The position numbers and the translations under genes were made by a program. Under the pieces are notes generated by a model. The model had not been told where the DNA came from. It was given only the letters and a program-made list of their open reading frames with translations, and did no database searches. From Candidatus Omnitrophota bacterium (GTDB lineage: Bacteria; Omnitrophota; Gorgyraeia; Zapsychrales; JANLHA01), in the NCBI GenBank assembly GCA_040753435.1, contig JBFMEN010000003.1, positions 10,916-74,915 of the forward strand: 64,000 nucleotides of DNA. The letters are read 5' to 3'. Positions within the stretch are counted from its first letter, which is position 1, and every line of letters begins with the position of its first letter. Positions 5,426-30,107 of this stretch are shown here, piece after piece.

Positions 5426-8347
5426 ATGAAGAAACTATTAATTTTGATACTTGTGATGATCTTCTCCACACAATATTCTCCCGTGGTATGGGCTGATGTT
5501 GTCGCTTTGACAGATGCCCAGATGGACGAGATTGCTGCGGGGGATTGGGTTATCATCGCCCAGAATGAGGATGTTGTCGATGTATTTGACAACATCAACA
5601 GGCTTGAAGCGGGTGAATCATCACAGCAAGGGCTTAATGGCCTCAGTAACGTGAATGAGGTCAACAGCGCGACTGCCGTTCAGCAGAACGTTTCTGACTC
5701 CAACGAAGGGGTCATGGACATCACAACTCGCAATGAGGCCAGTGTCACGAATTATCAACCAAGAGATGAACTGACCGTGTCGGAGACGCGAACTATTTCA
5801 GCGAGCAGCGAGAATGAAGTCCAGCAAACACAAAGGGCAATTACTTCCGACTCATTGACCGCTTCTGATCGGACAACAGCAACGAATTCGGAAAGCGCCT
5901 CTTTGGAACAGCGGGCTTCAAGCTCATTGAGCACGCTTTCTGACCAGAGCGCGAATGCTTCAGTGAGTTTTGATCAGGACAGCTCTTTAGCGACTTCAAA
6001 CAATGCTTCGAGTGACGCAAGTTTGAGCGCGGTTGATAATTTTCATTTAGAAGATCATGCGGTGAATAATACTTCGGTATCCGCGGAAACCAGCGACGCT
6101 GCATCAAGCAGTGCGTCGTTGGACAGTAACGCTGCTGCGTCTGAAAGGCATACGACTGACCAAAATGCGAATCAGGCAGCTGATGCTTCTCTGGATACAA
6201 GTGCTGCGGCATCTGAAGATCACGCGACAGATCAGGCTGCGAATCAGTCTGCGTCGGCTTCTTTAGATACTAATGCTGCGGCATCTGAAGATCACACGAC
6301 AGATCAGGCTGCGAATCAGTCTGCGTCGGCTTCTTTAGATACGAATGCTGCGGCATCTGAAGATCACACGACAGATCAGGCAGCGAATCAGTCTGCGTCG
6401 GCTTCTTTAGATACGAATGCTGCGGCATCTGAAGATCACACGACAGATCAGGCTGCGAGTCAGTCCGCGTCGGCCTCTTTAGATACGAGTGCTGCGGCAT
6501 CTGAAGATCACACGACAGATCAGGCTGCGAGCCAGTCCGCGTCGGCCTCTTTAGATACGAGTGCTGCGGCATCTGAAGATCACACGACAGATCAGGCTGC
6601 GAATCAGTCTGCGTCGGCTTCTTTAGATACGAATGCTGCGGCATCTGAAGATCACACGACAGATCAGGCTGCCAGCCAGTCAGCTTCGGCAACTCTGGAC
6701 ACCAGTGCGGCTGCTTCGGAAGATCACACCGCGGATCAGACAGCCAGCCAATCGTCATTAACGGCAGTTGATGCCAGCGCTTCGGCTTCTGAAGACCATA
6801 CAACGGATCAGTCTGCTGACCAAAGCTCTGCCTCGACTGTTGATGCGAATCTTGCGGCTTCTGAATCATTTGCTGCCGAAACGGCATCAGATGCTTTTGA
6901 AGGCGATGGAGAAGTGGCATCAACCGCAGATTCGGTTAGTTTTTCTGGAACATATGAAGAGGATAACGGATCGATTGCCCTTGATGGCGATTATGCCGAA
7001 ACACATGCGACAACATCCGATACAAAAACTTATTCAACATCAAGCAGCAGTTCTACTTCTGATACCGCTGCTCTTGATGGTGCCTTGAGTACTGCAAACG
7101 ACAGTTCATCCTCCGCGGATGCATCGACATCGGATGCCGCTCAAGCTCAGGAATCATTAGCGGCTTCACAGGATCAGAATGCTTCGGCTTCGGCATCGAC
7201 AACTGATTCTGCAGCGGCCCAACAATCTCTGACTGCAGCAAGCGATCAGGATGCAGCTGCCCAGGCATCGACAACTGATTCTGCAGCGGCTCAGCAATCC
7301 TTGACTGCGGCAAGCGATCAGGATGCAGCTGCCCAGGCATCAACAACTGATTCTGCAGCGGCTCAGCAATCCTTGACTGCGGCAAGTGATCAGGATGCGG
7401 CGGCCCAGGCATCAACAACTGATTCTGCAGCGGCTCAGCAATCTTTGACTGCGGCAAGCGATCAGGATGCAGCGGCCCAGGCATCGACAACTGATTCGGC
7501 AGCAGCGGAGCAGGCTTTAAGCGCATCAAGCGATCAGGCGGCATCAGCTTCGGCAGCTACAACGGATTCAGCAGCGGCAGAGCAGGGGTTAAGCGCGTCA
7601 AGTGATCAGGCAGCTTCTGCTTCAGCGTCAACGACTGATTCGGCGGCGGCAGAGCAGGGGTTAAGCGCGTCAAGCGATCAGGCAGCTTCTGCTTCAGCGT
7701 CAACGACGGATTCTGCGGCAGCGGAACAGACGTTAAGCGCATCAAGCAGCAATAGCGCATCGGCTTCAGCTTCGACATTAGATGAAGCTGCAGCAAATCA
7801 GTCGCTGTCGACAACGGCTGATACAGCAGAAGATCATACGGCATCCGCCAATCAAGCCGTTGCCCAGAGCAGCGACCTGATCAATGATCATGATCAATCA
7901 GTGGATCAGGCCAGTGCGGATTCAGCCAGCAGTTCATTAGATGAAACGCTAACGGTATCTTTTGATCAGAACGCTTCACAGAATGACGTGGAAACTGTCG
8001 ATGCTGAGGAAGCAACAGAGGTTATTGCAGATTCAAGCAACGATGAGAGCCTTGACACCCAAAGCGATCTGAACACTGTCAGTGAAAGCACTAACGAAGC
8101 TTCTGTAACAACCACGGTAAGTGTCGTCACTTCTGACACGACAAATACAACCATTAATGAAAGCACCGGAAAGAGTGTCAGAAATGTGCTTGTTTTAAGC
8201 GGCGGGGCGCAAAGCGAGATGAACGTGATGAGTAATGTAAACGCCGTCAGTTCAGCCATTGCGGTTCAAACGAATGTTGCGAATGCTAACGGGATTAGCG
8301 GCAGCATCAGTCACACCAATGTGGCAAATGTTGTTAACGGTTTTTAA
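5426..8347 (+). CDS. Secreted repeat protein with Fap-like amyloid motifs at both ends flanking two 24-aa tandem-repeat arrays (FapC-like candidate)
   Basis: 973 aa with signal peptide MKKLLILILVMIFSTQYSPVVWA. It has an N-terminal LTDAQMDEIAAG motif, then LNGLSNVNEVNSATAVQQNVSDSN. Then come about 10 copies of ASASLDTNAAASEDHTTDQAANQS and about 8 copies of ASTTDSAAAQQSLTAASDQDAAAQ. The C-terminus is LSGGAQSEMNVMSNVNAVSSAIAVQTNVANANG..NGF. An RBS lies upstream. Confidence 0.7.
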   Translation: MKKLLILILVMIFSTQYSPVVWADVVALTDAQMDEIAAGDWVIIAQNEDVVDVFDNINRLEAGESSQQGLNGLSNVNEVNSATAVQQNVSDSNEGVMDITTRNEASVTNYQPRDELTVSETRTISASSENEVQQTQRAITSDSLTASDRTTATNSESASLEQRASSSLSTLSDQSANASVSFDQDSSLATSNNASSDASLSAVDNFHLEDHAVNNTSVSAETSDAASSSASLDSNAAASERHTTDQNANQAADASLDTSAAASEDHATDQAANQSASASLDTNAAASEDHTTDQAANQSASASLDTNAAASEDHTTDQAANQSASASLDTNAAASEDHTTDQAASQSASASLDTSAAASEDHTTDQAASQSASASLDTSAAASEDHTTDQAANQSASASLDTNAAASEDHTTDQAASQSASATLDTSAAASEDHTADQTASQSSLTAVDASASASEDHTTDQSADQSSASTVDANLAASESFAAETASDAFEGDGEVASTADSVSFSGTYEEDNGSIALDGDYAETHATTSDTKTYSTSSSSSTSDTAALDGALSTANDSSSSADASTSDAAQAQESLAASQDQNASASASTTDSAAAQQSLTAASDQDAAAQASTTDSAAAQQSLTAASDQDAAAQASTTDSAAAQQSLTAASDQDAAAQASTTDSAAAQQSLTAASDQDAAAQASTTDSAAAEQALSASSDQAASASAATTDSAAAEQGLSASSDQAASASASTTDSAAAEQGLSASSDQAASASASTTDSAAAEQTLSASSSNSASASASTLDEAAANQSLSTTADTAEDHTASANQAVAQSSDLINDHDQSVDQASADSASSSLDETLTVSFDQNASQNDVETVDAEEATEVIADSSNDESLDTQSDLNTVSESTNEASVTTTVSVVTSDTTNTTINESTGKSVRNVLVLSGGAQSEMNVMSNVNAVSSAIAVQTNVANANGISGSISHTNVANVVNGF
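6130..6870 (+). repeat. 72-bp in-frame tandem repeat array, about 10 copies (24-aa unit ASASLDTNAAASEDHTTDQAANQS)
   Basis: Near-identical 72-nt units (gcgaatcagtctgcgtcggcttctttagatacgaatgctgcggcatctgaagatcacacgacagatcaggct) read directly in the sequence. They show occasional synonymous or conservative variants (N/S, N/T). Confidence 0.85.
7170..7740 (+). repeat. Second 72-bp in-frame tandem repeat array, about 8 copies (24-aa unit ASTTDSAAAQQSLTAASDQDAAAQ)
   Basis: Units such as gcatcgacaactgattctgcagcggctcagcaatccttgactgcggcaagcgatcaggatgcagctgcccag are repeated with minor variation. The period is the same as the first array but the unit is unrelated. Confidence 0.85.
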
Positions 8348-8406: not shown

Positions 8407-9690
8407 ATGTATCGGAAAATTATATCTATGATGATTTCAATCTGTCTTTTGTGTTCTCATGGACCGCTTGCATTTGCCAGTTATGCCGTTGTTCTCACCG
8501 ATTATGAATTGGATCAGATTTATGCCCAGGGAGTGGATGTCAGTCCCGGCGATGTTTTAAGTTCAGCGACAGTTGAGACTGCTGCTCTTGAATCAAATCC
8601 TTTTACGGAAAGTGAAAACAATAGCGTAACGTCGGTTCCTGTGACACCGGATAATCCTGTTGGACCGGCAACCCCGGTCCTGCCGGATGGTCCGACCGGC
8701 CCGGTGTTACCTGATGGGCCTTTTCCACCGGAAAGTCCTGTGTTACCAGATGGACCGGTTTTACCGGGTGGCCCTTTTGGTCCGACATCGCCGAATGGTC
8801 CGGTAGTGCCTGACAGTCCGGCGCTTCCGGACGGTCCGTTTGCACCGGGAAGCCCTGTGTTGCCGGACAGTCCTTTTGGTCCGACATCGCCGAATGGTCC
8901 GGTAGTGCCTGACAGTCCGGCGCTTCCGGACAGTCCGTTTGCACCGGGAAGTCCTGTGTTGCCGGACAGTCCTTTTGGTCCGACATCGCCGAATGGTCCG
9001 GTAGTGCCTGACAGTCCGGCGCTTCCGGACAGTCCGTTTGCACCGGGAAGTCCTGTGTTGCCGGACAGTCCTTTTGGTCCGACATCGCCGAATGGTCCGG
9101 TAGTGCCTGGCAGTCCGACGCTTCCGGACGGTCCGTTTGCACCGGGAAGTCCTAACGGGCCGATCAATCCGGTATTACCAACAGGACCTGTTAGTCCCGA
9201 ATTGCCAAATGGACCGTTTGCTCCGAACAGCCCGACTCTGCCAAATGCGCCGGGGAGTGTAACAGCGCCTCAAGCGCCAGCAGCTCCCGGGGAAGTGGCA
9301 TTAGCGGATCCTGTTGCATTAACTCCGGTCGTTCCTTCGGCACCGGGAACGCCGTCTGCTCCAAACGTCCCGGCGGCTCCAAATCCACCTATTCAGCTTG
9401 ATGTTGTCGCGGGGGGAAATGGCGGCGGTTTTCAGGTGGCGTTAAACAACAGCAGCGGTCAGTCTTTGCTGCCGGAATCTTTTACATCAAATGCGCTGGG
9501 AGCGATCAACTCAGTAGATTTGAGCGGGGCGGCCCAGCAGAATCTTTCCGCCATGGTCAATGTGAATGCGGCGGGAAGCGTTGTTCCGGTGATGATCAAT
9601 CTTACGGTATTGATGAATTCCACAGTTGAGAATCTGAGCAATTTCAATGATTTGAATTTGGCAAATTACTCGACCCTGAGAGTCCAGTGA
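8407..9690 (+). CDS. Secreted proline-rich (collagen-like PDSP/PDGP) repeat protein, paralogous at its N- and C-termini to the 5426..8347 product (FapB/C-like candidate)
   Basis: 427 aa with a signal peptide (..CSHGPLAFA). It has an N-terminal VVLTDYELDQIYAQG motif, then four 33-aa repeats (PDSPFGPTSPNGPVVPDSPALPDSPFAPGSPVL). Its C-terminal LSGAAQQNLSAMVNVNAAGSVVPVMINLTV aligns with LSGGAQSEMNVMSNVNAVSSAIAVQTNV of the upstream protein. Confidence 0.7.
   Translation: MYRKIISMMISICLLCSHGPLAFASYAVVLTDYELDQIYAQGVDVSPGDVLSSATVETAALESNPFTESENNSVTSVPVTPDNPVGPATPVLPDGPTGPVLPDGPFPPESPVLPDGPVLPGGPFGPTSPNGPVVPDSPALPDGPFAPGSPVLPDSPFGPTSPNGPVVPDSPALPDSPFAPGSPVLPDSPFGPTSPNGPVVPDSPALPDSPFAPGSPVLPDSPFGPTSPNGPVVPGSPTLPDGPFAPGSPNGPINPVLPTGPVSPELPNGPFAPNSPTLPNAPGSVTAPQAPAAPGEVALADPVALTPVVPSAPGTPSAPNVPAAPNPPIQLDVVAGGNGGGFQVALNNSSGQSLLPESFTSNALGAINSVDLSGAAQQNLSAMVNVNAAGSVVPVMINLTVLMNSTVENLSNFNDLNLANYSTLRVQ
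8750..9150 (+). repeat. 99-bp in-frame tandem repeat, about 4 copies (33-aa Pro-rich unit)
   Basis: The unit ccggacagtccttttggtccgacatcgccgaatggtccggtagtgcctgacagtccggcgcttccggacagtccgtttgcaccgggaagtcctgtgttg is repeated nearly exactly. Confidence 0.85.
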
Positions 9691-9714
9691 TAGTGAAAGG
9701 CCGGTTCGACAGCA

Positions 9715-14776: not shown

Positions 14777-15322
14777 TCAAGCTCTTCATATAATGTAAAG
14801 GTTTTTAATGGTAAGGCTATTGGAAGTTTCTGCCTTTTTTAGACTATTTTCATCATCGACGTGAAATATTGATGCGGGTAAAGGGAAAAATGTTGATAAA
14901 AAGGGGAAATTGGACCTTGTCTGACTAAGGGCGGAATATAGAATAAAATCAGAAAGCAAAAAAAGATATCCGTTAGACATGGTCGTGTATGAAATTAATC
15001 AACTGGAAGAAAACAACAAAGGAAAAAACCGGTTTGATACGGAAAAGCTTTTTACCGGTTTTTCCGTTATTTAATTTTATCGATATCTTTGAAGGCTTTC
15101 CTGACGATAATTTCGATATGCCCGGTAATGAATTTTTTTATCATAGCGTCAGGTTGACCGGCCTTAGCCGGAGTATCATTCCCATTGTAATCATTTTCAT
15201 CAATCTTGATTTCACCCATTTTAAAAACGAACGTTGTCTTTTTTGTGAAAGATAGCTGGTTGGCGTTCCGGCAGGAAAGAGGGCTGGTGTTTAATAATTT
15301 CGCGAATAAAATCTGGCAGTTC

Positions 15323-17542
15323 ATGATGAAACGGGTTGCACGCGCTCACGGGATTATTGATCCTGTCGCCTTTTCAGCCAAATTGAACAGATTCGGCCAG
15401 CCTTCGGAAGTGATCGTGCCTGTTGAACTGATCCGTATGTCTGCTGTTCTTCACGCAAGGGGGCTTGTGAACAGCAGGGCCATTCAGCACAATCTTGACT
15501 GGGTTTGGCCTTATTGGGTGGTGAAGCAGTTTGACCCTAAAAATATCTCCTTTATACCGAGGGCGTTTTCATTAACCCATATCAATTTAACTGAACGAAA
15601 CTGGACAGCCATAGGCCTTCCCGGTATCGATGAATTTCCCATTGTTGATCCGCGGGGACTTGTCACCCCATTCTTTGATAGTTGGTCGCTGGACGGATGG
15701 ATTGTGGGCGGGGGTCATGAACTTCTTCCATCTCGCTCAATGGATGCTGTCCAGCAGCTTGTAATGGACGGAAACATTTGTCTTAAAACCAAAACAGCGA
15801 ATACCTTTGGTTATCAGCTTGAGGTTGAGGCGCAGGTGATTTCCACGGAAGCAGGACCGGTCTGCCATGTGAGTTATAAAGCCAAAACTCCCCTGGAAGG
15901 AGCGTCTCTTGTCATTTCCGTCAGACCCTATAACCCTGAAGGGGTGAGCTTTATTAATTCAATCTCCATGACCCATGAAGGGAATGGATGGATCATTAAT
16001 AAAAAACATTCCGTCTTGTTCAGCGCCTTTGCCCATCGGCATGTTTTTTCAGATTATCCTTCCGGAGATGTTTACGAGCGTCTCGATAACAAGGAAAATT
16101 TAACGAATATCAAATGTGATGTTGGTATGGCGACGGCGGCGGCGGTATTTCCCCTGGAGCCGGAACAGATCTTCGAAATTTCAGTCGATGTTCCGTTATT
16201 AAAGAGAAAAGATTATCAGGATTCGAGCCGGAGGACGCCAATTCAACATTGGCATGAAAGTCTTAGGGACGCCGCGCGATTATCTTTATCCGACAAGCAT
16301 TTCGAATTTTTGTACAATGCTGCCGTCAGGACGCTGGTTTTAATGACCGGGGAGGATATTTATCCCGGACCATATACGTACAAACATTTCTGGTTTCGTG
16401 ACGCTGCCTTCATGTTATATGCGTTGACCATGATCGGGTTGACGAAACGGGGCCGATCGGCCGTCAATCTTTTTTTTCAACGTCAGAAATTAAACGGTTA
16501 TTTTCTGTCACAGGACGGCGAATGGGATTCCAACGGGCAGGTTTTATGGAGCATCCGGAAATTTTATGAAATGACCGGAGAAAGAGTCCCTGTTGAACGA
16601 CGCGAAAGGATCAAAAGGGGAGTCCGCTGGATCATGCACAAGCGTCTGGGAGAAAACATGACACCGCATTCAGGACTGATGCCGGCAGGTTTCAGTGCGG
16701 AGCACTTCGGACCGAATGATTATTATTACTGGGATGATTTCTGGTCCGTCGAAGGCTTGCGGTCGGGGGCATTTCTTTTAGAGCAGCTTGGTGAACGCTA
16801 TGTTGCCAGAAAATGTCTCAAAGAGGCGGAAGCCCTGTTAAAGGCGATTGAGAGGAGCCTGGAGAAAACTTCGCAGCGGTTAAAAACAAAAGCCATGCCA
16901 TCGTCGCCTTATCGCCGGTTGGACAGCGCCAGCGTTGGTCTTCTCGCGGCCTCATATCCTTTGAAATTATGGAAAGCGGATGATGAGCGCATCGACAAGA
17001 CGACCGAATTTTTGCTGGAGAACTGTTTCCTGAAAAATTCTTTTTTTCACGATATGAGTCATTCGGGAATAAATCCTTATTTGACGCTGCATGTGGCCGA
17101 GGTCCTCTTGCGTAAGGGCGACGGACGTTACTACGACCTTATGAAAGCGGTTGCAGATTCCGCCAGCCCGGCAGGTCAGTGGCCCGAGGCGATCCATCCA
17201 AATACCGGAGGAGGGTGCATGGGTGATGGGCAGCATGCGTGGGCATCGGCAGAATGGATTATGATGCTGCGCAACTGTTTTGTCCAGGAAGGAGCCGGAG
17301 ACATTCTGGTCCTTTGTCCCGGCGTTCATCCCGGCTGGTATTCCGATAACGAAGCTTCGTTCGGATGGTTATTTACCAGCCGCGGAAAGATTTATATCCG
17401 GGTCCGGAAGGACGGCGGAAAAGTGAAAATATCCTGGGAAGGCCGTTGGCATGATGATGTTCCGCCAAATATTATTGTCAAACTTCCGGGGTTGTCTCCT
17501 GTTCAGGTTCCTTATGGGGAAACTTCGGTTGAGGTAAGTTAA
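15323..17542 (+). CDS. (alpha/alpha)6-barrel glycoside hydrolase (amylo-alpha-1,6-glucosidase / GH15-GH63-like family)
   Basis: The HFWFRDAAFMLYAL motif and the acidic/aromatic-rich C-terminal half are typical of glucoamylase and debranching-type barrels. The start was trimmed from the ORF-track 15206 to the internal ATG (MMKRVARAHG). Family assignment is approximate. Confidence 0.55.
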   Translation: MMKRVARAHGIIDPVAFSAKLNRFGQPSEVIVPVELIRMSAVLHARGLVNSRAIQHNLDWVWPYWVVKQFDPKNISFIPRAFSLTHINLTERNWTAIGLPGIDEFPIVDPRGLVTPFFDSWSLDGWIVGGGHELLPSRSMDAVQQLVMDGNICLKTKTANTFGYQLEVEAQVISTEAGPVCHVSYKAKTPLEGASLVISVRPYNPEGVSFINSISMTHEGNGWIINKKHSVLFSAFAHRHVFSDYPSGDVYERLDNKENLTNIKCDVGMATAAAVFPLEPEQIFEISVDVPLLKRKDYQDSSRRTPIQHWHESLRDAARLSLSDKHFEFLYNAAVRTLVLMTGEDIYPGPYTYKHFWFRDAAFMLYALTMIGLTKRGRSAVNLFFQRQKLNGYFLSQDGEWDSNGQVLWSIRKFYEMTGERVPVERRERIKRGVRWIMHKRLGENMTPHSGLMPAGFSAEHFGPNDYYYWDDFWSVEGLRSGAFLLEQLGERYVARKCLKEAEALLKAIERSLEKTSQRLKTKAMPSSPYRRLDSASVGLLAASYPLKLWKADDERIDKTTEFLLENCFLKNSFFHDMSHSGINPYLTLHVAEVLLRKGDGRYYDLMKAVADSASPAGQWPEAIHPNTGGGCMGDGQHAWASAEWIMMLRNCFVQEGAGDILVLCPGVHPGWYSDNEASFGWLFTSRGKIYIRVRKDGGKVKISWEGRWHDDVPPNIIVKLPGLSPVQVPYGETSVEVS

Positions 17543-19350: not shown

Positions 19351-20772
19351 ATGGGGGAAGATCGCTCAAATTCAGATTTCGGCAACATTAAAGAACAGAT
19401 TATTCAATTTGATTCCTGTACTGCTCTGATGAATGCCCTTGCGCGATTTCTTCATGGGCTGGATTTTCCACTCGTCGGGCTTGGTCATAATGTTCCTTCC
19501 TGGCTTGGGTCGCTCGTTGATGCTATTCCCAGAAAAATACGCTTAAAAATTTACGGCTGGAGCGGATGGATTGATGCCTTGCCTTCGGAAAAGCTTCCAG
19601 AACTTCGCTCTGAAAATATTGACCGGTGGGTTGCATCTGTTTACCCCAAGCGGCAGTATCCCGGTATCATGTTCGGCTCGGCCAATGGGGCGGCGATTCA
19701 TATTGCTGCCGCATTGGGGATCCCCTGGCTCCCGCAGACTTTTTTGACTGCGGCCAGACGTTTTTTGCCGCCGGATGAAATCCGGAAGGATATTGAATGG
19801 GGAAAACAGGTCATTCGTCCTTTTCTTCATTTGAATCCGGATCTGCAGACGACGCAGATGCACGACCCGGTCCAGGACAGGCTGATGATCCAGAAAATGG
19901 GATATTTCCGGATTAAAAAAATGCGGCTGGGAAAGATTTATGAAAAATTTATTTTGGAAAATCTGAAGATGCCTGCTGTGTTTATGACCGTGGAATGCCG
20001 TCTTTTATGGCCTGCACTTGAAGTCGGTGAGCGGCATTATTTTCAAGTTGGCGGATTGGGGTCGGTTAAACCGTATGAATATCTGCACGGCAGTAACCGG
20101 GTGAAGTCTTTCCTCAAACAGATGGGTTCGACTTTGGAACGATGGGAGACATTTCAACCGACGGGAGAGTTCGCAGAGGGAGAATGGGGGTTCGTTGAAC
20201 AATGCCTGCCCGACATACAGCGGTTTGTCGGCAAGCACAATATTCCCTGGGTCAGGATTATTTTTGATCATCCGGAAGATCTTGCCCCGTTCACCGCCGC
20301 ACTTTATGAGTGGTGGTATCGGCGGTTGGGACGCGCTTCCAACATTTTGTTGATTGAAAACTTCGGTTTGATGGCGCCTTTCGATACTGTTGAGGGAAAC
20401 GTCATTCCCTTCTGGCTGGCGTTTAATACAGAAGATTCCCTTAACCGGATTAAAAAATATTTGGAGAGGCATCATTCATTCAGTGAGATTTATTTGATGC
20501 TGATGTCAAACGGAGTCCCTGATGAGATCGGGCTGGTAACGATTGACAAATGGAGAAATATTTTGGCAACGGCTAAGGAGAAGGGTGATTTTATCGGGGT
20601 TAATGAGCGCGAATATCCTTTAGACTTCGGGACGTTCATTAAATATAACCAGGAATTAAAGAAGAAAATCAAAAACAGGATGCCGTTGCCGGAGCCGTTG
20701 TCCCTTGAAGATCTGAGGGAATTTGTTGAGACGCATCAAGGGATGTATCATGTCCAGTGGAAGTCCTCCTGA
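19351..20772 (+). CDS. Hypothetical protein (473 aa), no recognised domain
   Basis: Long ORF tightly packed in the same operon; no diagnostic motif was seen. Confidence 0.5.
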   Translation: MGEDRSNSDFGNIKEQIIQFDSCTALMNALARFLHGLDFPLVGLGHNVPSWLGSLVDAIPRKIRLKIYGWSGWIDALPSEKLPELRSENIDRWVASVYPKRQYPGIMFGSANGAAIHIAAALGIPWLPQTFLTAARRFLPPDEIRKDIEWGKQVIRPFLHLNPDLQTTQMHDPVQDRLMIQKMGYFRIKKMRLGKIYEKFILENLKMPAVFMTVECRLLWPALEVGERHYFQVGGLGSVKPYEYLHGSNRVKSFLKQMGSTLERWETFQPTGEFAEGEWGFVEQCLPDIQRFVGKHNIPWVRIIFDHPEDLAPFTAALYEWWYRRLGRASNILLIENFGLMAPFDTVEGNVIPFWLAFNTEDSLNRIKKYLERHHSFSEIYLMLMSNGVPDEIGLVTIDKWRNILATAKEKGDFIGVNEREYPLDFGTFIKYNQELKKKIKNRMPLPEPLSLEDLREFVETHQGMYHVQWKSS

Positions 20773-22919: not shown

Positions 22920-24416
22920 ATGGCCTATCAAATTCTTTTAATCGATGACGATGCCTCCTTCCGTCAGGAATTCCGGGAGTATCTTAATGATGTTAAGGTT
23001 GTTGAAGCGTCATCCGGCCAGGAAGCCCAAAATATTTTATCCACGCCAAATGACATTGATCTTGTTATCCTTGATGAGATGTTGAGCCATGAAAGAGGCA
23101 CGGAAATTCTGCCGCGTCTCAGACAAATCGCACCGCATTTACCTGTCATTCTTCTGACCGGGTACAGTTCCAAAGATATCGCCGTTGATGCTCTGCGCGC
23201 CCAGGCCGCGGATTACCTTGAAAAACCTTTAAACCCGAAAAAGTACGGAATTATCCGTTCTTATTTCACGTCCGTTCCGAGAGATACAGACGGGAGCTTT
23301 ACCAACGGTTTTGAAGGGAAGATCGAATGGGTCAAACGTTATCTTTGCAAGAATTACGATAAAAGGGTGAGGCTCAAGGATGTGGCGGAGGGTGTCTGCT
23401 GGAGCACCAAGTATCTCAGCCGTATTTTTAAAGAGCATATGGGTTCAAGTTTCAGCGAATATAAATTGGGCATTAAAATTGAAAAAGCTAAAGAATGGCT
23501 TCAGAGTGACGGACGGACCATCGATCAGATTTCGCTGAAGCTCGGGTATGAGAATACCGATTCTTTCGTCAAGATATTCAAAAAATTTAACGGCTGCACT
23601 CCCTCCGAATATCGCAAAAAGAATTTACAACAACCGGAGGCATCTCGTATTGCAAGAGCAAGGGATTCCGTTGAGGCTGAACCACAAAAATCCATGAAAA
23701 GGATCCGGAAATCGCAGAAGACAGAAATCGATTCCCAAAGGCTTCAATATTTATCTGATATCAGCCGGTTGGCCTCGATGGTTGCGCACGAATTGCGCAA
23801 TCCTATCGGCGTCATCTCCACGGCACTCTGGAATATCCGAAGGAAGAACAAAAATCCGGATTTAGAAACGAATATTCAGAGCATCGAAAAGAAAGTCGAT
23901 GAAAGCATTTCGATCATAAATAATTTATTGAACTATTCCCGTCTGCGGATTCCGCGTTTTAAACCGGTTAAACTGGATGAAATCCTTATCGATTCCGTTC
24001 AATCGGTTTCTAAAAAATTTCGTCATCGCGCCAATCAAGTGCAAATACACCAGGATTTAAAGACATTAGAAACTGCTATTGTTAACGGTGACCCGAGTCA
24101 ATTAAGGCAGGTTTTCAAAAACATTCTCATCAATGCTTATCAAGCGCTGGAGGGAGTCCCTGACCCCAGGATTGAGATATGGGGAGAAGTCAAGGCCGAG
24201 CAAGCCCGAGTCTTTATCCGTGATAACGGCCCAGGAATTAAAAAACAAAATCTTAAAAAGGTTTTCGATCTTTTTTATTCAGAACGATCGCGTGGGGCCG
24301 GACTGGGTCTGTCGATCGCCAAGCAGCTTGTTGAAATGCACAATGGAACGATAAGCATCAAAAGTGAAATGGGACAGGGCACTCTCGTTTCCATTTTCCT
24401 TCCTGTCACAGCTTGA
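22920..24416 (+). CDS. Hybrid regulator: receiver (REC) domain, then AraC-type HTH, then histidine kinase (HisKA plus HATPase_c)
   Basis: ILLIDDD..LVILDEMLSH (phospho-acceptor Asp region), then KDVAEGVCWSTKYLSRIFKEHMG..GYENTDSFVKIFKKFNGCTPSEYR (AraC HTH), then MVAHELRNPIGVI (H-box) and GAGLGLSIAKQLVEMHNGTISI (G2 box). Confidence 0.8.
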   Translation: MAYQILLIDDDASFRQEFREYLNDVKVVEASSGQEAQNILSTPNDIDLVILDEMLSHERGTEILPRLRQIAPHLPVILLTGYSSKDIAVDALRAQAADYLEKPLNPKKYGIIRSYFTSVPRDTDGSFTNGFEGKIEWVKRYLCKNYDKRVRLKDVAEGVCWSTKYLSRIFKEHMGSSFSEYKLGIKIEKAKEWLQSDGRTIDQISLKLGYENTDSFVKIFKKFNGCTPSEYRKKNLQQPEASRIARARDSVEAEPQKSMKRIRKSQKTEIDSQRLQYLSDISRLASMVAHELRNPIGVISTALWNIRRKNKNPDLETNIQSIEKKVDESISIINNLLNYSRLRIPRFKPVKLDEILIDSVQSVSKKFRHRANQVQIHQDLKTLETAIVNGDPSQLRQVFKNILINAYQALEGVPDPRIEIWGEVKAEQARVFIRDNGPGIKKQNLKKVFDLFYSERSRGAGLGLSIAKQLVEMHNGTISIKSEMGQGTLVSIFLPVTA

Positions 24417-25768: not shown

Positions 25769-26665
25769 ATGAACAAGTTTGAAAAACGATGGTTCATTAC
25801 AACTCTTTTTATTCTGGCGATTCTTTTTGATGTTCGTTCTTCGTTTGCTTTTGTCAATTTTTTCGACGTGAAATCTTCTGATCCCTGGGAAGCGACCCTT
25901 AAGACGGAGTACACCTTTGAAACCGGTGTCGACTCCCAGGATGGTGATTTTTCGGTAGGACATTCAGAGCTCGGTTTAAAAAAAGAATTTAAGCTCGAAA
26001 ATGGTCTCCCGGTCGATTTTGGGATTGCCATGGATCATTACACGATTCACGATGATACTCCGGTTGATCTTCCTGCCTCCCTTCAAAGCAAGGGGATAAT
26101 TCTCGGGGCTAAAATGCCGATGCCGTTTACGACGAGTGATTATTTGTTCATGGGCGTAAGTATGGGGGCGTACCTTCAAAGCGCGGGAGACCATGCCTTT
26201 CATTCCAGTGCGTTTCGTTTCAAAAACCGCCTTTACGGGATTTATAAAAAGGATGAGCGGTTTATTTTTGTGATGGGCGTTATGGCGAATCCCGATTATG
26301 AAGAGCGGGCGGTGCGGCCTTTTGCCGGTATGCAGTATCTTATAAATGACCGTTGGAGTATTCATTTCCTATCCGATGATCCTTTTGTTGCTTATCGCCT
26401 TAGTGATAGAACCACGTTAAAATGCCAGTTAAGCATTATCAATGATGAGTTTGAGGTTGTCTCAGGTTCCAGGAGAGGGGAGATTGTTAACATTAATGAA
26501 TATCATATCGGTTTGGGGGTTGAACACGAGATCAAAAAGGACATGAATGTCCAGGGTACTGTTGGCTGGGCCACGGGACGCAAGTATGAATATCTTAAGG
26601 ATGGAGGGAAAGTCGTTCCTGAGGACGGGATATTCTTGGGGCTCAGTCTTAACCTTGGATTCTAA
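25769..26665 (+). CDS. Outer-membrane beta-barrel protein (hypothetical)
   Basis: It has a signal peptide (MNKFEKRWFITTLFILAILFDVRSSFA) and alternating-hydrophobic strands, and ends ..GLSLNLGF with a C-terminal Phe. The start was trimmed from 25538 to an internal ATG preceded by AAAGGGGG. Confidence 0.6.
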   Translation: MNKFEKRWFITTLFILAILFDVRSSFAFVNFFDVKSSDPWEATLKTEYTFETGVDSQDGDFSVGHSELGLKKEFKLENGLPVDFGIAMDHYTIHDDTPVDLPASLQSKGIILGAKMPMPFTTSDYLFMGVSMGAYLQSAGDHAFHSSAFRFKNRLYGIYKKDERFIFVMGVMANPDYEERAVRPFAGMQYLINDRWSIHFLSDDPFVAYRLSDRTTLKCQLSIINDEFEVVSGSRRGEIVNINEYHIGLGVEHEIKKDMNVQGTVGWATGRKYEYLKDGGKVVPEDGIFLGLSLNLGF

Positions 26666-26863
26666 CCATATTCCTGCCGCCATCGTGCGGATAATGTTTA
26701 TATCTGTTTTTTAAAATCGAGTTCGGGCTTGAAATCTGCTTTAATGATTATTCAAAAATATCAAGGGACCCTGAAAGTAGTCAGCAAACCGGGTGAAGGC
26801 TCGGTCTTTACGATCGTTCTGCCGTCCATCCAGCATGCTTCCAAGAAATACTTGTCCTTTTAG
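26666..26863 (+). pseudogene. Remnant of a histidine-kinase C-terminus (HATPase_c G2/G3 region), with no start and no upstream domains
   Basis: The in-frame translation ..SGLKSALMIIQKYQGTLKVVSKPGEGSVFTIVLPS.. closely parallels the true HK tail at 24330..24416 (GLGLSIAKQLVEMHNGTISIKSEMGQGTLVSIFLPV). It sits in the same frame directly after the OMP stop. Confidence 0.4.
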
Positions 26864-26936
26864 TTGTTCTTTAGCGAATCCGTTTTTCAAAGAAAACATT
26901 TAATCAGTAATTTCTTCAAGGGACAAAGGAGTAATC

Positions 26937-28841
26937 ATGTTTCGTGTCCTTTCGAATGCTCTATTCTTGCCAATGCTGTTGATAATGCTTTCTGGAACGG
27001 CGCTTCCTCTTCCGGAAGAGGAAAAATTGGTCTATGGCGAAGCCACATTTGACCGTTCGGGAAAGGTTTTTACGGTCAATCAGAACAGCAGCCAGCTGAT
27101 CGTTAATTACAATCGTTTCTGGATCGGCAAGTCGGAGACAGTGAGGTTCAATCAGCCCGGTATTTCCAGTGTTGTTTTAAACAGGGTGACTGGTTCAAGC
27201 CCTTCAAATATTTTCGGAACACTCTCCGCCAATGGTCAGGTCTTTCTTGTCAATCCGAACGGGATTGTGTTTGGAAGAAACGCCACGGTTGACGTCGGAG
27301 GACTTGTCGCCTCGACTTTGAAGATTTCCAACGATGATTTTAAAAACGGCAATTATGTTTTTACTGGCCGCAGCGGAACGATCGGGAATTTCGGAACGAT
27401 TCAATCCCGTGCGGGAGGATATGTGGCCCTTTTATCGCCGCAAATAAAAAACGGAGGTTCTGTGGTCGCGACCCTGGGAAGGGTAGTTCTGGCGTCAGGA
27501 GAGAGGATTACCCTTGGTCTCGATTCCGGGAATTTGATCGGTGTCGCCGTTAACGAAGAAGTCACTAAAAGCCTGGCTGCTGCAGATGCCGCCATTGAAA
27601 ATTTCGGCAGTGTTAAATCTGACGGTGGCAAGGTTATTCTGACCGCCAAGACACTTAACACGGTTTTTGATCATGCCATTAATAATGACGGGATCATTGA
27701 AGCAAACGGTTTTGGGGATCACGACGGGGAAATTCTGCTGCTGGCCGACAATGATATTACAGTTGGGGGACGCCTTGAAGCGGCGGGAGATATCCGGATC
27801 ATTTCCACCGAAGGGAACGTCGTGCATCAATTAAGTTTTATCGAAGGCGATTTAAACGGAGATGTGATCACCGGATCCGGTTTTTATGGGTCTGCTGGTA
27901 ACGATTATGTCCTGAAGAACGGAATCATGATCAGCAGTCCCTACGAGACTTTTGATATTTCGGCCGGGAACAATGTGATCATCGGCTCGGATGGAGAGGA
28001 TGCCATCAGTGTTCTTCAATGGGGATATGGGTCAGGAGACCGCGGGTTTAAATTACGGGAGGTCGGTTATTATACTACAGAGAGCGGCAGAATTTTTTAT
28101 CATCCCCTTATGATCAGCGATGATATCGGAAAAGACGGGGCCCTCATGGGGGGCGCTCGCTCGGTTTATGGCGAACCGGGATTTGAATTTTATGTCACGT
28201 TTCTTGATTATATGGCGAAGCCGCTAACCTTTTTTAGTGAAATGGCATTGAACAAGAAAGGGTTGGATCATGAGAACAGGATTGGAGATCAGTCTATTTG
28301 GGAGGATGGCGGCGACAACGATTTTAATGATGCCCAACTTGTTTTTGTGACAGAAACTTTCAAGGTGTCTGCTTCGCCGCAAATTCCCAAACCGCCAGCC
28401 CCGCCTGATCCTCCTGAACCGCCTGATCCTCCCGAACCGCCTGATCCTCCTGAACCGCCTGATCCTCCCGAACCGCCTGATCCTCCCGAACCGCCTGATC
28501 CTCCTGAACCGCCTGATCCCCCTGAACCGCCTGATCCTCCTGAACCGCCTGATCCTCCTGAGCCTCCGGATATTCCAGAAATTCCTGCCGCCGGTTCCGT
28601 TGACTCTTTGCTTCGAAAAGGGAAAGAATATTCGGATAACTTTTCTGTTTATTATGAAATTCTTTTTCCAAGTCAATTCCTGAGTTTTGAACCGGTTGCT
28701 GCAGTCGGACTTTACGCGTATCATCCATTGACTTTGGTGGATGAGAGCGCCTTTGACAATATTAGACTTGATATCGATGCCTATGAATTCGTTGAAGATC
28801 AAATTAGAAAGAAAAGGTTTTCTCCTTATTTTGGAGAATAA
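26937..28841 (+). CDS. TPS-domain (hemagglutination-activity domain) secreted protein with a (PEPPDP)n spacer: a short TpsA-like exoprotein
   Basis: Signal peptide, then NYNRFWIGKSETVRFNQPG..SVVLNRVTGSSPSNIFGTLSANGQVFLVNPNGIVFG. These are the classic NxxGI..N.F..F / NPNGI motifs of two-partner-secretion TpsA N-termini. A beta-helix-like G/N-rich body follows, then 12 copies of PEPPDP and a C-terminal ~90-aa domain. Confidence 0.75.
   Translation: MFRVLSNALFLPMLLIMLSGTALPLPEEEKLVYGEATFDRSGKVFTVNQNSSQLIVNYNRFWIGKSETVRFNQPGISSVVLNRVTGSSPSNIFGTLSANGQVFLVNPNGIVFGRNATVDVGGLVASTLKISNDDFKNGNYVFTGRSGTIGNFGTIQSRAGGYVALLSPQIKNGGSVVATLGRVVLASGERITLGLDSGNLIGVAVNEEVTKSLAAADAAIENFGSVKSDGGKVILTAKTLNTVFDHAINNDGIIEANGFGDHDGEILLLADNDITVGGRLEAAGDIRIISTEGNVVHQLSFIEGDLNGDVITGSGFYGSAGNDYVLKNGIMISSPYETFDISAGNNVIIGSDGEDAISVLQWGYGSGDRGFKLREVGYYTTESGRIFYHPLMISDDIGKDGALMGGARSVYGEPGFEFYVTFLDYMAKPLTFFSEMALNKKGLDHENRIGDQSIWEDGGDNDFNDAQLVFVTETFKVSASPQIPKPPAPPDPPEPPDPPEPPDPPEPPDPPEPPDPPEPPDPPEPPDPPEPPDPPEPPDPPEPPDIPEIPAAGSVDSLLRKGKEYSDNFSVYYEILFPSQFLSFEPVAAVGLYAYHPLTLVDESAFDNIRLDIDAYEFVEDQIRKKRFSPYFGE
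28390..28570 (+). repeat. 18-bp in-frame tandem repeat (ccgcctgatcctcctgaa), about 10-12 copies encoding (PEPPDP)n
   Basis: Read directly in the sequence; third-position variants (cct/ccc) occur between copies. Confidence 0.85.
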
Positions 28842-28920: not shown

Positions 28921-29541
28921 ATGAAAACACGAAAAGTTCTTTTAACCATTTTGATCATCCTTGCCTGTGTGGCGGCCTTTCAATGGGGATGGTTTTTTTA
29001 TCGGTCTTCCAAGGATGATCCGTTTAAAATTAGTTCGAAAAGGGTGAAAGGAACACCCGATGCGGCCGTTAAGATTATTGAATACACGGATTACCGCTGC
29101 AGTTTTTGCTCGGGCGCTTCTAATTGGCTTAACAAGATTATGAGGAAAAACCCCGGATCAATCTATTTAGAAGTTAGGTACTTTCCCTTGCATTTGAATG
29201 ATGGGGCCTTAACGGCTAGGTTCGCCGAGTGCGCGTTACGTCAAAATAAATTCTGGGCTATTCATGACGATTTGATGACTCAGCAATCGAAATGGATAAG
29301 GCTTCCCAATTCAGAATCCTTTTTTCTTGATTTGGCCGTTAAACATCGTTTGGATGTGGGACAGTTGAAAACATGCTGGTCAGATCCGGAGCTTTATGAT
29401 TCCATTATGGATCTTAAGGACCAAGGAAAGGATTTGGGGGTAACGGCAACGCCGACATTTTTTGTGAATGGGAAAATGGCGGTTGGAGTTAATGATTTGA
29501 AGACGGAACTTAACCGTTTATTGGGAACGGAACTTGAATAA
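28921..29541 (+). CDS. DsbA-like thiol:disulfide oxidoreductase (thioredoxin fold), membrane-anchored or secreted
   Basis: An N-terminal TM/signal segment and a CSFC redox motif in the context YTDYRCSFCSGAS. 206 aa. Confidence 0.65.
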   Translation: MKTRKVLLTILIILACVAAFQWGWFFYRSSKDDPFKISSKRVKGTPDAAVKIIEYTDYRCSFCSGASNWLNKIMRKNPGSIYLEVRYFPLHLNDGALTARFAECALRQNKFWAIHDDLMTQQSKWIRLPNSESFFLDLAVKHRLDVGQLKTCWSDPELYDSIMDLKDQGKDLGVTATPTFFVNGKMAVGVNDLKTELNRLLGTELE

Positions 29542-29786: not shown

Positions 29787-30107
29787 ATGCCTGCTGATCA
29801 TTTAAAACCCAGTAATTTTCAAAGCCAGGTGTTAAGGTCAGATATCCCTGTGTTAGTTGACTTTTACGCTGACTGGTGCGGACCATGCAAAATGCTTTCC
29901 CCCATTGTTGACCAGCTTTCCGATGAACTTGAGGGCAAGGCCAAGGTTTTTAAGCTGAATGTCGATGAAGGCCAGGAGATTGCAGCCCAGTATAATATTA
30001 TGTCGATTCCCAACCTTTTGCTTTTTAAGAATGGAGAAGTCGCAGTTCAGATGGTGGGGGCGATGCCAAAGGATCAATTACTGGCAAAAATGAAACCCCA
30101 CATATAA
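29787..30107 (+). CDS. trxA: Thioredoxin
   Basis: WCGPCK active site; 106 aa; strong RBS. Confidence 0.9.
   Translation: MPADHLKPSNFQSQVLRSDIPVLVDFYADWCGPCKMLSPIVDQLSDELEGKAKVFKLNVDEGQEIAAQYNIMSIPNLLLFKNGEVAVQMVGAMPKDQLLAKMKPHI

What the first reader, a model, noticed from the sequence alone, without database searches (positions are those of the whole stretch)
26937..28841. Orphan, unusually short TpsA-like exoprotein with a (PEPPDP)12 spacer and no Omp85-type TpsB partner in the window
The N-terminal about 250 aa have the hallmark TPS-domain motifs of filamentous-hemagglutinin-type two-partner-secretion substrates. The protein is only 634 aa and no POTRA-containing TpsB transporter is encoded nearby. 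The adjacent 299-aa barrel (25769..26665) is too small to be Omp85-like. The rigid Pro-Glu/Pro-Asp spacer (TonB-like) followed by a about 90-aa C-terminal domain suggests a stalk presenting a small effector or adhesin module. Adjacent DsbA-like and thioredoxin genes would fit an envelope-folding context. It may be a mini-TpsA secreted by a distal TpsB.
Basis: partly seen in the sequence, partly recalled or inferred. Interest (0 to 1): 0.55.

Follow-up and report, generated by a model that had tools for sequence, protein, structure and literature searches.

The report
Short orphan TpsA adhesin, Omnitrophota-type
This gene encodes a genuine but unusually compact two-partner-secretion surface protein from an uncultured Omnitrophota-like bacterium; its transporter gene is not nearby, and it ends in a proline-rich spacer plus a conserved 70-residue tail that no database describes and that marks a whole subfamily of such proteins.

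Summary
ORF 26937..28841 (634 aa) has a strong TPS domain (Pfam 130 bits; the fold matches EtpA, HMW1, HxuA and FHA secretion domains), and no TpsB or TpsB remnant lies in the 64 kb window. The repeat has about 10 PEPPDP units, not 12.

The interpretation needs revising in four places.
- The protein belongs to an Omnitrophota TpsA subfamily whose non-orthologous members all have a canonical TpsB next door.
- The TpsB-less state is not an accident. The same tpsA sits at the same housekeeping locus in at least four related genomes, so a TpsB acting in trans is the most likely route (inferred, not shown).
- The small barrel became adjacent only through a deletion, which left a histidine-kinase scar at 26726..26860. 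The protein has no cysteines, so the DsbA-like neighbour is irrelevant.
- The C-terminal about 70 aa is not a variable effector. It is the most conserved part of the protein, always terminal, found in about 240 protein clusters, absent from Pfam, NCBIfam and the PDB, not predicted to fold alone, and usually preceded by a Pro-rich stretch.

I read the linker and tail as a tether or retention element comparable to the FhaB PRR and ECT. The likely ligand-binding head is a DUF4114-like β-sandwich.

The parts
25769..26665 (+). Context only: small outer-membrane-type protein (298 aa with a signal peptide), DUF6268-like. It is not a TpsB.
   Evidence: PF19783 scores 27.9 bits against a cutoff of 22.8, and there is no POTRA or ShlB domain. 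Orthologues occur in L006 and L007 (E about 1e-85, 47-48% identity). In L007 a 5-kb kinase cluster separates the barrel from tpsA.
26726..26860 (+). Decayed 3' end of a histidine-kinase gene (tail of the HATPase_c domain). This is the scar of a deletion that removed an HK-RR-HK cluster between the barrel and tpsA.
   Evidence: The frame starting at 26642 reads ...GLKSALMIIQKYQGTLKVVSKPGEGSVFTIVLPSIQHASKKYLSF*. It aligns to residues 1067-1099 of the 1103-aa PAS kinase directly upstream of tpsA in L007 (48% identity, E=1e-9). L015 also has a kinase C-terminus directly upstream of tpsA.
26926..26931 (+). Shine-Dalgarno sequence AAGGAG, 5 nt before the ATG
   Evidence: Read directly from the sequence.
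26937..27008 (+). Sec signal peptide (aa 1 to about 22-24; MFRVLSNALFLPMLLIMLSGTA|LP)
   Evidence: The sequence has a basic n-region, a hydrophobic core and a small-residue site. It aligns with the family consensus ...AYA|LPQG. The model shows helix 2-19.
27057..27776 (+). TPS secretion domain (aa 41-280), including LNRV (aa 81-84) and NPNGIVFG (aa 106-113)
   Evidence: PF05860 scores 130.3 bits and TIGR01901 scores 85 bits. The model has pLDDT above 90 here, and Foldseek matches EtpA, HMW1, HxuA, FHA and HpmA TPS domains.
27777..27986 (+). Continuation of the beta-helix (aa 281-350)
   Evidence: AlphaFold predicts beta-strands with pLDDT 79-96. The region is conserved in family alignments A1 and A3.
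27999..28367 (+). DUF4114-like beta-sandwich (aa 355-477) with an acidic WEDGGDNDFND motif (aa 455-465). This is the proposed Ca2+/carbohydrate-binding head.
   Evidence: The target scores 18.4 bits for PF13448 (E=0.004, below the cutoff of 27), while 19 of 20 family members match (best E=2e-9). The model shows a beta-sandwich with pLDDT 73-87. Function of DUF4114 elsewhere: PMC9109919, PMC11934332.
28380..28586 (+). Pro-rich acidic linker (aa 482-550). Its core is an 18-nt tandem repeat at 28401..28561 that encodes PEPPDP.
   Evidence: Tandem Repeats Finder reports 8.9 copies with 95% matches. There are 8 exact and 2 degenerate peptide units, and the region is 56% Pro. It occupies the position of about 360 residues in the closest relative, P0125. 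It is the most Pro-rich pre-CTD segment among 108 family members.
28629..28838 (+). Subfamily-defining C-terminal domain (CTD, aa 565-634): VYYEIL...FEP...GLYAYHPL...D.SAFD.I.LD..AYEF...PYFGE
   Evidence: It is conserved in A1, A2 and A4. A profile finds 240 clusters (E<=1e-3) among 1.84 billion representatives, and apart from two spurious repeat-protein hits every listed match is at or within about 30 residues of the C-terminus. It has no Pfam, NCBIfam or PDB relative. It has no confident autonomous fold.
28921..29541 (+). Context only: DsbA/Thioredoxin_4-like protein (206 aa)
   Evidence: Pfam scores 75 and 52 bits. It is present in L006 and L007 but absent from the orthologous locus L015. 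The target has no cysteines.
29787..30107 (+). Context only: thioredoxin, the first gene of the conserved housekeeping block (Trx-PanD-Def-LipA and onward)
   Evidence: Pfam scores 109.6 bits. Synteny with L006, L007, L015 and L017 is shown.

Best explanation
The ORF encodes an intact, compact type Vb (two-partner secretion) passenger protein of a subfamily known so far almost only from Candidatus Omnitrophota.

Architecture (shown):
- a Sec signal peptide;
- a TPS domain with a right-handed beta-helix (aa about 25-350);
- a DUF4114-like beta-sandwich (aa about 355-477);
- a recently expanded acidic polyproline linker, (PEPPDP) times about 10;
- a 70-aa C-terminal domain (CTD) that defines the subfamily.

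Genomic status (shown):
- The gene is a conserved 'orphan'. Orthologues occupy the same housekeeping locus (ahead of Trx-PanD-Def-LipA) in at least four related genomes, and none has a tpsB within the recovered DNA.
- All eight non-orthologous loci of the subfamily have a POTRA_2+ShlB TpsB directly adjacent.

Mechanism (inferred):
- After Sec export, the TPS domain is recognised by the POTRA domains of a TpsB encoded elsewhere in the genome, as with FhaC serving FhaS and FhaL.
- The beta-helix and the lectin-like sandwich fold on the cell surface and act as a short adhesin, probably binding a carbohydrate in a Ca2+-dependent way.
- The polyproline rod and CTD are not cargo. They form a tether, retention or regulatory element that stays on the periplasmic side or in the TpsB pore and keeps the passenger attached to the cell. 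[quoted passage not shown]

History (shown): compared with its closest relative (P0125, 930 aa), the window protein has lost about 360 residues of passenger and gained the repeat array in the same position.
For: TpsA identity: PF05860 130 bits and TIGR01901 85 bits. The beta-helix model matches solved TPS domains.

Subfamily and partners: the closest homologues are Omnitrophota MAG proteins. A TpsB lies adjacent in L001, L002, L004, L008, L010, L012, L013/L021 and L020.

Conserved orphan locus:
- The window, L006, L007, L015 and L017 share gene order at 45-75% amino-acid identity and lack a TpsB.
- The TPS motifs remain intact across them.
- Precedents for orphan TpsAs served in trans are given in PMC10449530.

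CTD as a non-cargo element:
- It is found in 240 clusters and, apart from two spurious repeat-protein hits, always lies at or within about 30 residues of the C-terminus.
- It is more conserved than the TPS region (68% against 50% with P0125, 73% against 46% with P0128, 64% against 44% with L007).
- The 40 residues upstream average 15.8% Pro against 4.1% elsewhere (n=108).
- It has no confident fold alone (pLDDT 67, pTM 0.25).
- It also occurs on two Sec-signal proteins without a TPS domain, encoded right next to a tpsA.
- In the long-form loci, a conserved cassette follows tpsA/tpsB: a SurA-like lipoprotein, a HAMP membrane protein and an HExxH protein. This fits periplasmic handling of these proteins.

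FhaB model: the prodomain with its PRR and ECT is periplasmic, and the ECT controls degradation of the prodomain (PMC4542190).

Head domain: DUF4114 matches 19 of 20 family members. Lectin precedents are in PMC9109919 and PMC11934332.
Against: - No TpsB of the source genome could be examined. The window's genome was not found in any collection, so secretion in trans is an inference.
- The location of the CTD (periplasm or surface) is untested. Its similarity to the FhaB PRR and ECT is one of architecture only, with no sequence homology shown.
- The target's own DUF4114 score is below Pfam's cutoff, and the profile found no solved structure.
- The accessory cassette is absent from the window and from all orphan and short-form loci, so it cannot be claimed for this gene.
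- The internal deletion and the nearby deletion scar could instead indicate decay.
Confidence: 0.55

Rival explanations
1. One reading: the proline-rich segment is an extracellular stalk, and the C-terminal domain is the functional tip, a small adhesin or effector presented away from the cell.
For: The order of the architecture (helix, linker, terminal module) allows it. Polyproline rods are rigid spacers. In FHA, the C-terminal end of the mature protein is the end distal from the cell (established knowledge).
Against: - The CTD is the most conserved segment and is not polymorphic.
- It is attached to passengers from about 560 to 3657 aa.
- It has no confident autonomous fold and no toxin, enzyme or adhesin family match.
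- The DUF4114-like sandwich is a better candidate for the binding head.
Confidence: 0.15
2. The CTD is an extracellular cell-surface anchor. After full translocation it binds non-covalently to the producer's own outer membrane, LPS or surface layer, and the proline rod holds the beta-helix away from the cell.
For: The CTD is always terminal, is rich in aromatic residues, and is shared by proteins of different lengths. It is often followed by a short Lys/Glu-rich tail. Such an anchor would explain cell association without retention in the periplasm.
Against: The two Sec-only CTD proteins (P0151, P0153) have no evident route across the outer membrane. No known anchor family matches. The CTD is not predicted to fold alone.
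Confidence: 0.15
3. The gene is a decaying relic. It lost its TpsB, then lost its middle region, and a slippage-prone repeat expanded; it is no longer exported.
For: There is a deletion scar immediately upstream. About 360 aa are missing internally relative to P0125. The 18-nt units are 95% identical, which indicates recent expansion. No TpsB or accessory cassette is present in cis.
Against: - The 634-codon ORF is intact and has a good Shine-Dalgarno sequence.
- The deletion and the repeat keep the reading frame, and all three conserved modules are retained.
- Orthologues are intact in at least four genomes that have diverged to 45-75% identity.
- Equally short relatives sit next to a TpsB.
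Confidence: 0.12
4. Export does not use a TpsB. The neighbouring DUF6268-type barrel, or some other unknown outer-membrane component, carries this clade's TpsA across the outer membrane.
For: The barrel lies upstream of tpsA in the window, L006 and L007. No TpsB was seen in 64 kb, 20 kb or 14 kb of flanking DNA.
Against: - The barrel has no POTRA or ShlB domain and is only 298 aa.
- In L007 a kinase cluster separates it from tpsA, and in the window it became adjacent only by deletion.
- The whole 13-kb region is syntenic, so the co-occurrence is explained by shared ancestry.
- The TPS domain, whose only known role is recognition by TpsB POTRA domains, is fully conserved.
Confidence: 0.04

Closest known systems
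TpsA passenger proteins of two-partner (type Vb) secretion, in particular short adhesin-type members with solved TPS domains (EtpA, HMW1, HxuA, FHA)
   Same: It has an N-terminal Sec signal, a TPS domain with the NPNG motif, and a right-handed beta-helix. Relatives are paired with POTRA_2+ShlB transporters.
   Different: It is only 634 aa and has no tpsB within 64 kb. It carries a DUF4114-like sandwich, a polyproline repeat and a conserved CTD that the characterised TpsAs are not known to have.
Orphan TpsAs secreted in trans (Bordetella FhaS and FhaL via FhaC; Neisseria meningitidis orphan TpsAs via TpsB2)
   Same: The tpsA gene has no adjacent transporter, and its TPS domain is intact (PMC10449530).
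   Different: Here the orphan sits at a conserved housekeeping locus across several genomes of an uncultured phylum. The transporter acting in trans has not been identified.
FhaB prodomain: proline-rich region (PRR) plus extreme C-terminus (ECT)
   Same: A repeat-containing Pro-rich segment is followed by a short, strictly conserved extreme C-terminus on a TpsA. In FhaB these parts stay in the periplasm and control processing (PMC4542190).
   Different: No sequence relationship has been shown. FhaB has a prodomain of about 1200 aa, whereas here the linker and CTD together are about 150 aa. The topology and processing of the Omnitrophota CTD are unknown.
DUF4114 (PF13448) lectin-type beta-sandwiches (Myxococcus PilY1.1 N-terminal domain; Acanthamoeba mannose-binding protein)
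   Same: It has an acidic W-E-D...G-D-x-D-[FY]-[ND]-D motif and a beta-sandwich, and it sits in an adhesin context (PMC9109919, PMC11934332).
   Different: The target scores below Pfam's cutoff, and binding of sugar or Ca2+ is untested.
TonB-type Pro-Glu/Pro-Lys periplasm-spanning spacers
   Same: Both are rigid, charged X-Pro repeats that link two functional ends.
   Different: There is no homology. The target has no N-terminal membrane anchor and no TonB C-terminal domain.

Membership tests
TpsA (two-partner secretion passenger, type Vb) | N-terminal TPS domain detected by curated HMMs | tested here: met
   PF05860 scores 130.3 bits (cutoff 33.5) and TIGR01901 scores 85 bits (cutoff 29.1).
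TpsA (two-partner secretion passenger, type Vb) | Conserved NPNG(I) motif and the preceding N-R-V / N-E-V element | tested here: met
   LNRV lies at aa 81-84 and NPNGIVFG at aa 106-113. N106 and F112 are invariant, and P107, N108, G109 and G113 nearly invariant (at least 90%), in the 26-sequence alignment.
TpsA (two-partner secretion passenger, type Vb) | Right-handed beta-helix fold of the secretion domain | tested here: met
   The AlphaFold model has pLDDT above 90 for aa 30-300. Foldseek matches 8cpk at E=3e-19, plus 2odl, 4i84, 1rwr and 3fy3.
TpsA (two-partner secretion passenger, type Vb) | Sec signal peptide | tested here: met
   Read from the sequence and from alignment with the family's AYA|LP site. 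No dedicated predictor was available.
TpsA (two-partner secretion passenger, type Vb) | Cognate TpsB (POTRA + ShlB/Omp85 barrel) encoded adjacent to the gene | tested here: not met
   There is none in the 64 kb window. Adjacency is usual for the family but not obligatory (PMC10449530).
TpsA (two-partner secretion passenger, type Vb) | A TpsB present somewhere in the genome, and secretion that depends on it | not testable with these tools
   The source genome was not found in any collection. Testing this needs the whole genome and an experiment.
Omnitrophota CTD-type TpsA subfamily (defined here) | C-terminal module of about 70 aa (YYE.L...YAYHPL...AY.FI) at the extreme C-terminus, preceded by a Pro-rich stretch | tested here: met
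   A local CTD profile matches at E=4.7e-36. The tail after the CTD is 0 residues, and the upstream 40 residues are 40% Pro.
DUF4114 (PF13448) | Match to the Pfam model above the gathering score | tested here: inconclusive
   The target scores 18.4 bits against a cutoff of 27 (E=0.004), while 19 of 20 aligned family members match (best E=2e-9).
TpsB / Omp85 (asked of the adjacent barrel 25769..26665) | POTRA domain(s) plus a ShlB/Omp85 16-stranded barrel, about 550 aa or more | tested here: not met
   The protein is 298 aa, matches only DUF6268, and gets no hit from the TpsB profile.
Known C-terminal sorting signals (T9SS CTD, PEP-CTERM, LPXTG and similar) | Match to the curated NCBIfam or Pfam models; for the CTERM and LPXTG types, a terminal TM helix plus a basic tail | tested here: not met
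   Pfam and NCBIfam give no such hit at E<=0.1. The sequence ends ...RKKRFSPYFGE with no hydrophobic helix.
FhaB-type prodomain (PRR + ECT) | Sequence homology to the Bordetella PRR and ECT; periplasmic retention and regulated degradation | not tested
   Only the architecture is comparable (PMC4542190). No FhaB sequence was compared, and topology needs an experiment.

The most novel reading that the evidence does not exclude
The Pro-rich linker and 70-aa CTD could be a previously unrecognised C-terminal envelope-docking or sorting signal of Omnitrophota with its own partner machinery. Candidates for that machinery are the SurA-like lipoprotein, HAMP protein and HExxH protein cassette seen beside the long-form systems. 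On this reading, both TPS and non-TPS proteins use the signal, and it lets the conserved TpsB-less clade reach or stay on the cell surface without a cognate transporter gene.
Probability: 0.1. Interest if true: 0.75.

Novelty: new variant of a known kind. Interest (0 to 1): 0.4.

Why it matters
Omnitrophota are uncultured, mostly ultra-small bacteria that are thought to depend on host cells, and how they attach to other cells is largely unknown (PMC10066038). I found no paper that links this phylum with two-partner secretion.

This window leads to three findings:
- a large, phylum-restricted TpsA subfamily marked by an undescribed conserved C-terminal module;
- a compact member that reduces the architecture to its essentials (secretion domain, lectin-like head, proline rod, tail), which makes it a convenient construct for experiments;
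- a conserved accessory cassette in the long-form systems.

If the tail proves to be a retention or regulatory element, the FhaB-type logic of a periplasmic C-terminus controlling a surface adhesin would extend to a distant phylum by an unrelated sequence. If not, this remains an ordinary orphan TpsA.

Tried and rejected
- Source genome. Exact-sequence look-ups of the target and of the thioredoxin found nothing. The genome and metagenome scans found relatives but not the window itself.
- Metagenome scan.
- CTD structure. The CTD was poorly predicted in the full-length model (pLDDT 30-59). A dedicated run with 61 sequences was only marginally better (pLDDT 67, pTM 0.25), so no fold comparison was attempted.
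- PDB searches. Profile searches with the CTD and with the DUF4114-like region found no relatives. Weak Foldseek hits of the sandwich to C2 domains (E=0.14) are not significant.
- Barrel as transporter: rejected. It has no POTRA or ShlB domain, the adjacency arose by deletion, and the co-occurrence is explained by whole-locus synteny.
- DsbA and thioredoxin link: rejected, because the protein has no cysteines and L015 lacks the DsbA-like gene.
- L004/L005 376-aa gene as a barrel homologue: no similarity.
- P0121 and P0122, the top hits of the CTD profile, are repeat-driven false positives.
- Literature searches for Omnitrophota with TPS or filamentous hemagglutinin returned nothing.
Full report
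**1. The observation**

The ORF at 26937..28841 (+) is real. It encodes 634 aa, and an AAGGAG Shine-Dalgarno sequence lies 5 nt upstream of the ATG.

The TPS domain is confirmed:
- Pfam matches aa 41-280 to the TPS secretion domain at 130.3 bits (cutoff 33.5).
- NCBIfam TIGR01901, the 'adhes_NPXG' model, matches at 85 bits.
- An AlphaFold model built on 26 family sequences gives a beta-helix with pLDDT above 90 for aa 30-300.
- Its best PDB matches are all TPS secretion domains: EtpA 8cpk (E=3e-19), HMW1 2odl, HxuA 4i84, FHA 1rwr and HpmA 3fy3.

The repeat is real but was over-counted. Tandem Repeats Finder gives 8.9 copies of an 18-nt unit at 28401..28561 with 95% matches. At the peptide level there are 8 exact PEPPDP units and one degenerate unit on each side.

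The window holds no TpsB:
- Pfam on the 11 ORFs of at least 425 aa found no ShlB or POTRA domain.
- tblastn with three Omnitrophota TpsBs gave nothing better than E=0.87.
- A TpsB profile found nothing among all window ORFs of at least 80 aa.

The upstream gene is a DUF6268-like small barrel, and the downstream genes are a DsbA/Thioredoxin_4-like protein and a thioredoxin. The target contains no cysteine, however, so a disulfide-folding link does not apply to it.

**2. What family it belongs to**

The best database relatives (38-44% identity) come from metagenomes and MAGs, and the ones that carry a source name are from Candidatus Omnitrophota/Omnitrophica; several carry TPS plus DUF4114 hits. 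An alignment shows a modular family:
- a signal peptide;
- a TPS domain and beta-helix;
- a DUF4114-like region, in most members;
- a variable middle region, absent in the short members of 559-634 aa and several hundred residues long in the 900-1000-aa members;
- a Pro-rich stretch;
- a strongly conserved C-terminal module of about 70 aa (VYYEIL...FEP...GLYAYHPL...D.SAFD.I.LD..AYEFI...PYFG).

The DUF4114 assignment is sub-threshold for the target (18.4 bits against a cutoff of 27). It holds for the family, because 19 of 20 aligned members match PF13448, with a best E of 2e-9. In the model this region is a beta-sandwich with pLDDT 73-87. Elsewhere DUF4114 is a Ca2+-dependent carbohydrate-binding sandwich. 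This has been proposed for Myxococcus PilY1.1 (PMC9109919) and shown for the Acanthamoeba mannose-binding protein (PMC11934332).

**3. The C-terminal domain (CTD)**

I searched a 9-sequence CTD profile against 1.84 billion representative proteins. It found 240 proteins at E<=1e-3 and 117 at E<=1e-10. The two top hits are repeat-driven false positives.

- Position: in all other cases the match lies within 0-30 residues of the C-terminus, in proteins of up to 3657 aa.
- Partner domain: a local TPS profile hits 83 of the 161 CTD proteins I held. Most of the others appear to be N-terminally truncated fragments of the same kind of protein.
- Exceptions: P0151 and P0153 have a Sec signal, Pro-rich repeats and the CTD, but no TPS domain. 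In L016, two such genes lie in tandem directly upstream of a TPS-domain gene.
- Pro-rich rule: the 40 residues before the CTD average 15.8% proline, against 4.1% in the rest of the protein (n=108). The target is the most extreme case, at 40%.
- Database status: the CTD has no Pfam, NCBIfam or PDB relative.
- Fold: it is not predicted to fold on its own, with pLDDT 30-59 in the full-length model and pLDDT 67 with pTM 0.25 using 61 diverse sequences.
- Conservation: among the closest relatives it is more conserved than the TPS region. The figures are 68% against 50% for P0125, 73% against 46% for P0128, and 64% against 44% for the L007 orthologue.

This pattern is the opposite of a polymorphic effector tip. 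It fits a conserved docking, retention or regulatory element.

**4. The orphan status**

Contexts for the subfamily fall into two groups.
- Eight distinct, non-orthologous loci have a POTRA_2+ShlB TpsB of 566-596 aa directly next to tpsA. These are L001, L002, L004, L008, L010, L012, L013/L021 and L020.
- The loci without a TpsB all belong to one orthologous set: the window, L006, L007, L015 (which encodes P0125) and L017.

The orthologous loci share the order tpsA, (DsbA-like), Trx, PanD, Def, LipA, LPG-synthase-like, YacP, MlaE and onward, at 45-75% amino-acid identity. The TpsB-less arrangement therefore arose once and has been kept, with an intact TPS domain, through considerable divergence. 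That argues for a functional gene served by a transporter encoded elsewhere. Documented examples are FhaC with FhaB, FhaL and FhaS, and N. meningitidis TpsB2 with orphan TpsAs (PMC10449530).

I could not verify a distal TpsB. The window's genome is in none of the collections, and only 8-20 kb of each sister locus could be read.

**5. The barrel and the scar**

In L007 the barrel (1703-2617) and tpsA (7793-10213) are separated by three genes: a 391-aa histidine kinase, a 132-aa response regulator and a 1103-aa PAS histidine kinase. L015 also has a kinase C-terminus immediately upstream of tpsA.

In the window, the 270-nt 'intergenic' stretch contains ...GLKSALMIIQKYQGTLKVVSKPGEGSVFTIVLP.... This aligns to residues 1067-1099 of the large L007 kinase at 48% identity (E=1e-9). 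The window lineage therefore deleted the kinase cluster, and that deletion is what brought the barrel next to tpsA. The barrel has no POTRA or ShlB domain. I see no reason to connect it with secretion of this protein.

**6. How the short form arose**

The closest relative, P0125 (930 aa, at the orthologous locus), matches aa 21-481 of the target at 50% identity and aa 561-634 at 68%. Its residues 490-852 correspond to the target's 80-residue Pro-rich linker. Orthologues have only short Pro-rich stretches of about 8-10 residues before the CTD.

The 18-nt units in the window are 95% identical, so the array is a recent expansion. The ORF stays in frame and keeps all three conserved modules. Independently short relatives, P0002 (609 aa) and P0004 (584 aa), sit next to a TpsB, so a short architecture is viable.

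**7. An accessory cassette seen in related loci**

I clustered the neighbouring ORFs across the loci. This revealed three conserved genes immediately after tpsA/tpsB in L002, L008, L012, L013/L021, L018/L009 and L020; L010 has the third gene only.
- The first encodes a lipoprotein of about 180 aa with a SurA-like N-terminal domain (SurA_N_3 at 34.9 bits).
- The second encodes a two-TM HAMP protein of about 190 aa (34-37 bits).
- The third encodes a secreted protein of about 190-200 aa. It has no family match, but an HE[IMV][GA]HA (HExxH) motif is invariant in 7 of 7 sequences.

A chaperone-like protein, a membrane signalling module and a putative metalloprotease would suit periplasmic handling or processing of these passengers. 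The cassette is absent from the window, the other orphan loci and the short-form loci. It is a lead for the subfamily, not a part of this gene's locus.

**8. Mechanism**

Shown:
- TpsA identity and the modular architecture.
- Conservation and terminal position of the CTD.
- The Pro-rich rule.
- Conservation of the orphan locus.
- The deletion history.

Inferred:
- Export through a TpsB acting in trans.
- Surface display of the beta-helix with a lectin-like head.
- The linker and CTD acting as a tether or retention element on the periplasmic side.

The last inference rests on an analogy with FhaB. In FhaB the prodomain, with its proline-rich region and strictly conserved extreme C-terminus, is periplasmic, and the ECT controls processing (PMC4542190). 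The analogy is one of architecture only. Homology was not tested and is unlikely. The rival readings are a stalk presenting a terminal adhesin or effector, an extracellular self-anchor, a decaying relic, and TpsB-independent export. They are scored separately in this report.

**9. Verdict**

This is a genuine TpsA, and orphan TpsAs are a known phenomenon, so the core of the finding is ordinary.

Three things are new:
- an undescribed C-terminal module, essentially restricted to Omnitrophota, that defines a large TpsA subfamily;
- the conservation of a TpsB-less member at a housekeeping locus;
- an accessory cassette in the long-form systems.

I rate it a new variant of a known kind, with moderate interest (0.4).

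Noticed in passing
window 26726..26860: A decayed C-terminal fragment of a histidine-kinase ATPase domain lies in the 'intergenic' region upstream of tpsA. It matches the end of the 1103-aa PAS kinase that occupies this position in L007. This is a deletion scar left by the loss of a two-component cluster.
   Followed up: yes
L002 11052-12800; L008 10386-12136; L012 6997-8780; L013 5656-7461; L018 815-2515; L020 10334-12067: A conserved three-gene cassette follows tpsA/tpsB in the long-form loci. It encodes a SurA-like lipoprotein, a two-TM HAMP protein, and an unannotated secreted protein with an invariant HExxH motif (a putative metalloprotease). It is absent from the window.
   Followed up: partly
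L016 1-621 and 995-2359 (P0153-like and P0151): Two tandem genes encode Sec-signal proteins made of Pro-rich DPRNKNITPGDPTR-type repeats plus the same CTD, with no TPS domain. They lie directly upstream of a TPS-domain gene.
   Followed up: partly
window 53806..60558 and about 60682..64000 (+ strand, runs off the window end): A 2250-aa ORF carries SNF2/helicase domains. It is followed by a second large ORF whose first 340 aa or so are a paralogous copy of the first ORF's N-terminal module. Both copies are 46-47% identical to the N-terminus of a 640-aa protein encoded near the TpsAB pair in L005. The module has no Pfam match.
   Followed up: partly
window 5426..8347, 15206..17542, 8407..9690, 19351..20772: Four large ORFs (973, 778, 427 and 473 aa) have no Pfam match at E<=0.001.
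   Followed up: no
window 22920..24416: An unusual hybrid regulator combines a receiver domain, an AraC-type HTH, HisKA and HATPase_c in one 498-aa protein. It lies upstream of the barrel.
   Followed up: no
L006 and L014 record titles: Two loci that carry this otherwise Omnitrophota-restricted subfamily are labelled 'uncultured Planctomycetales' and 'Candidatus Elulimicrobium' (Patescibacteria group in the NCBI taxonomy). L006 is fully syntenic with the window, so at least that label probably reflects binning or classification rather than biology.
   Followed up: partly
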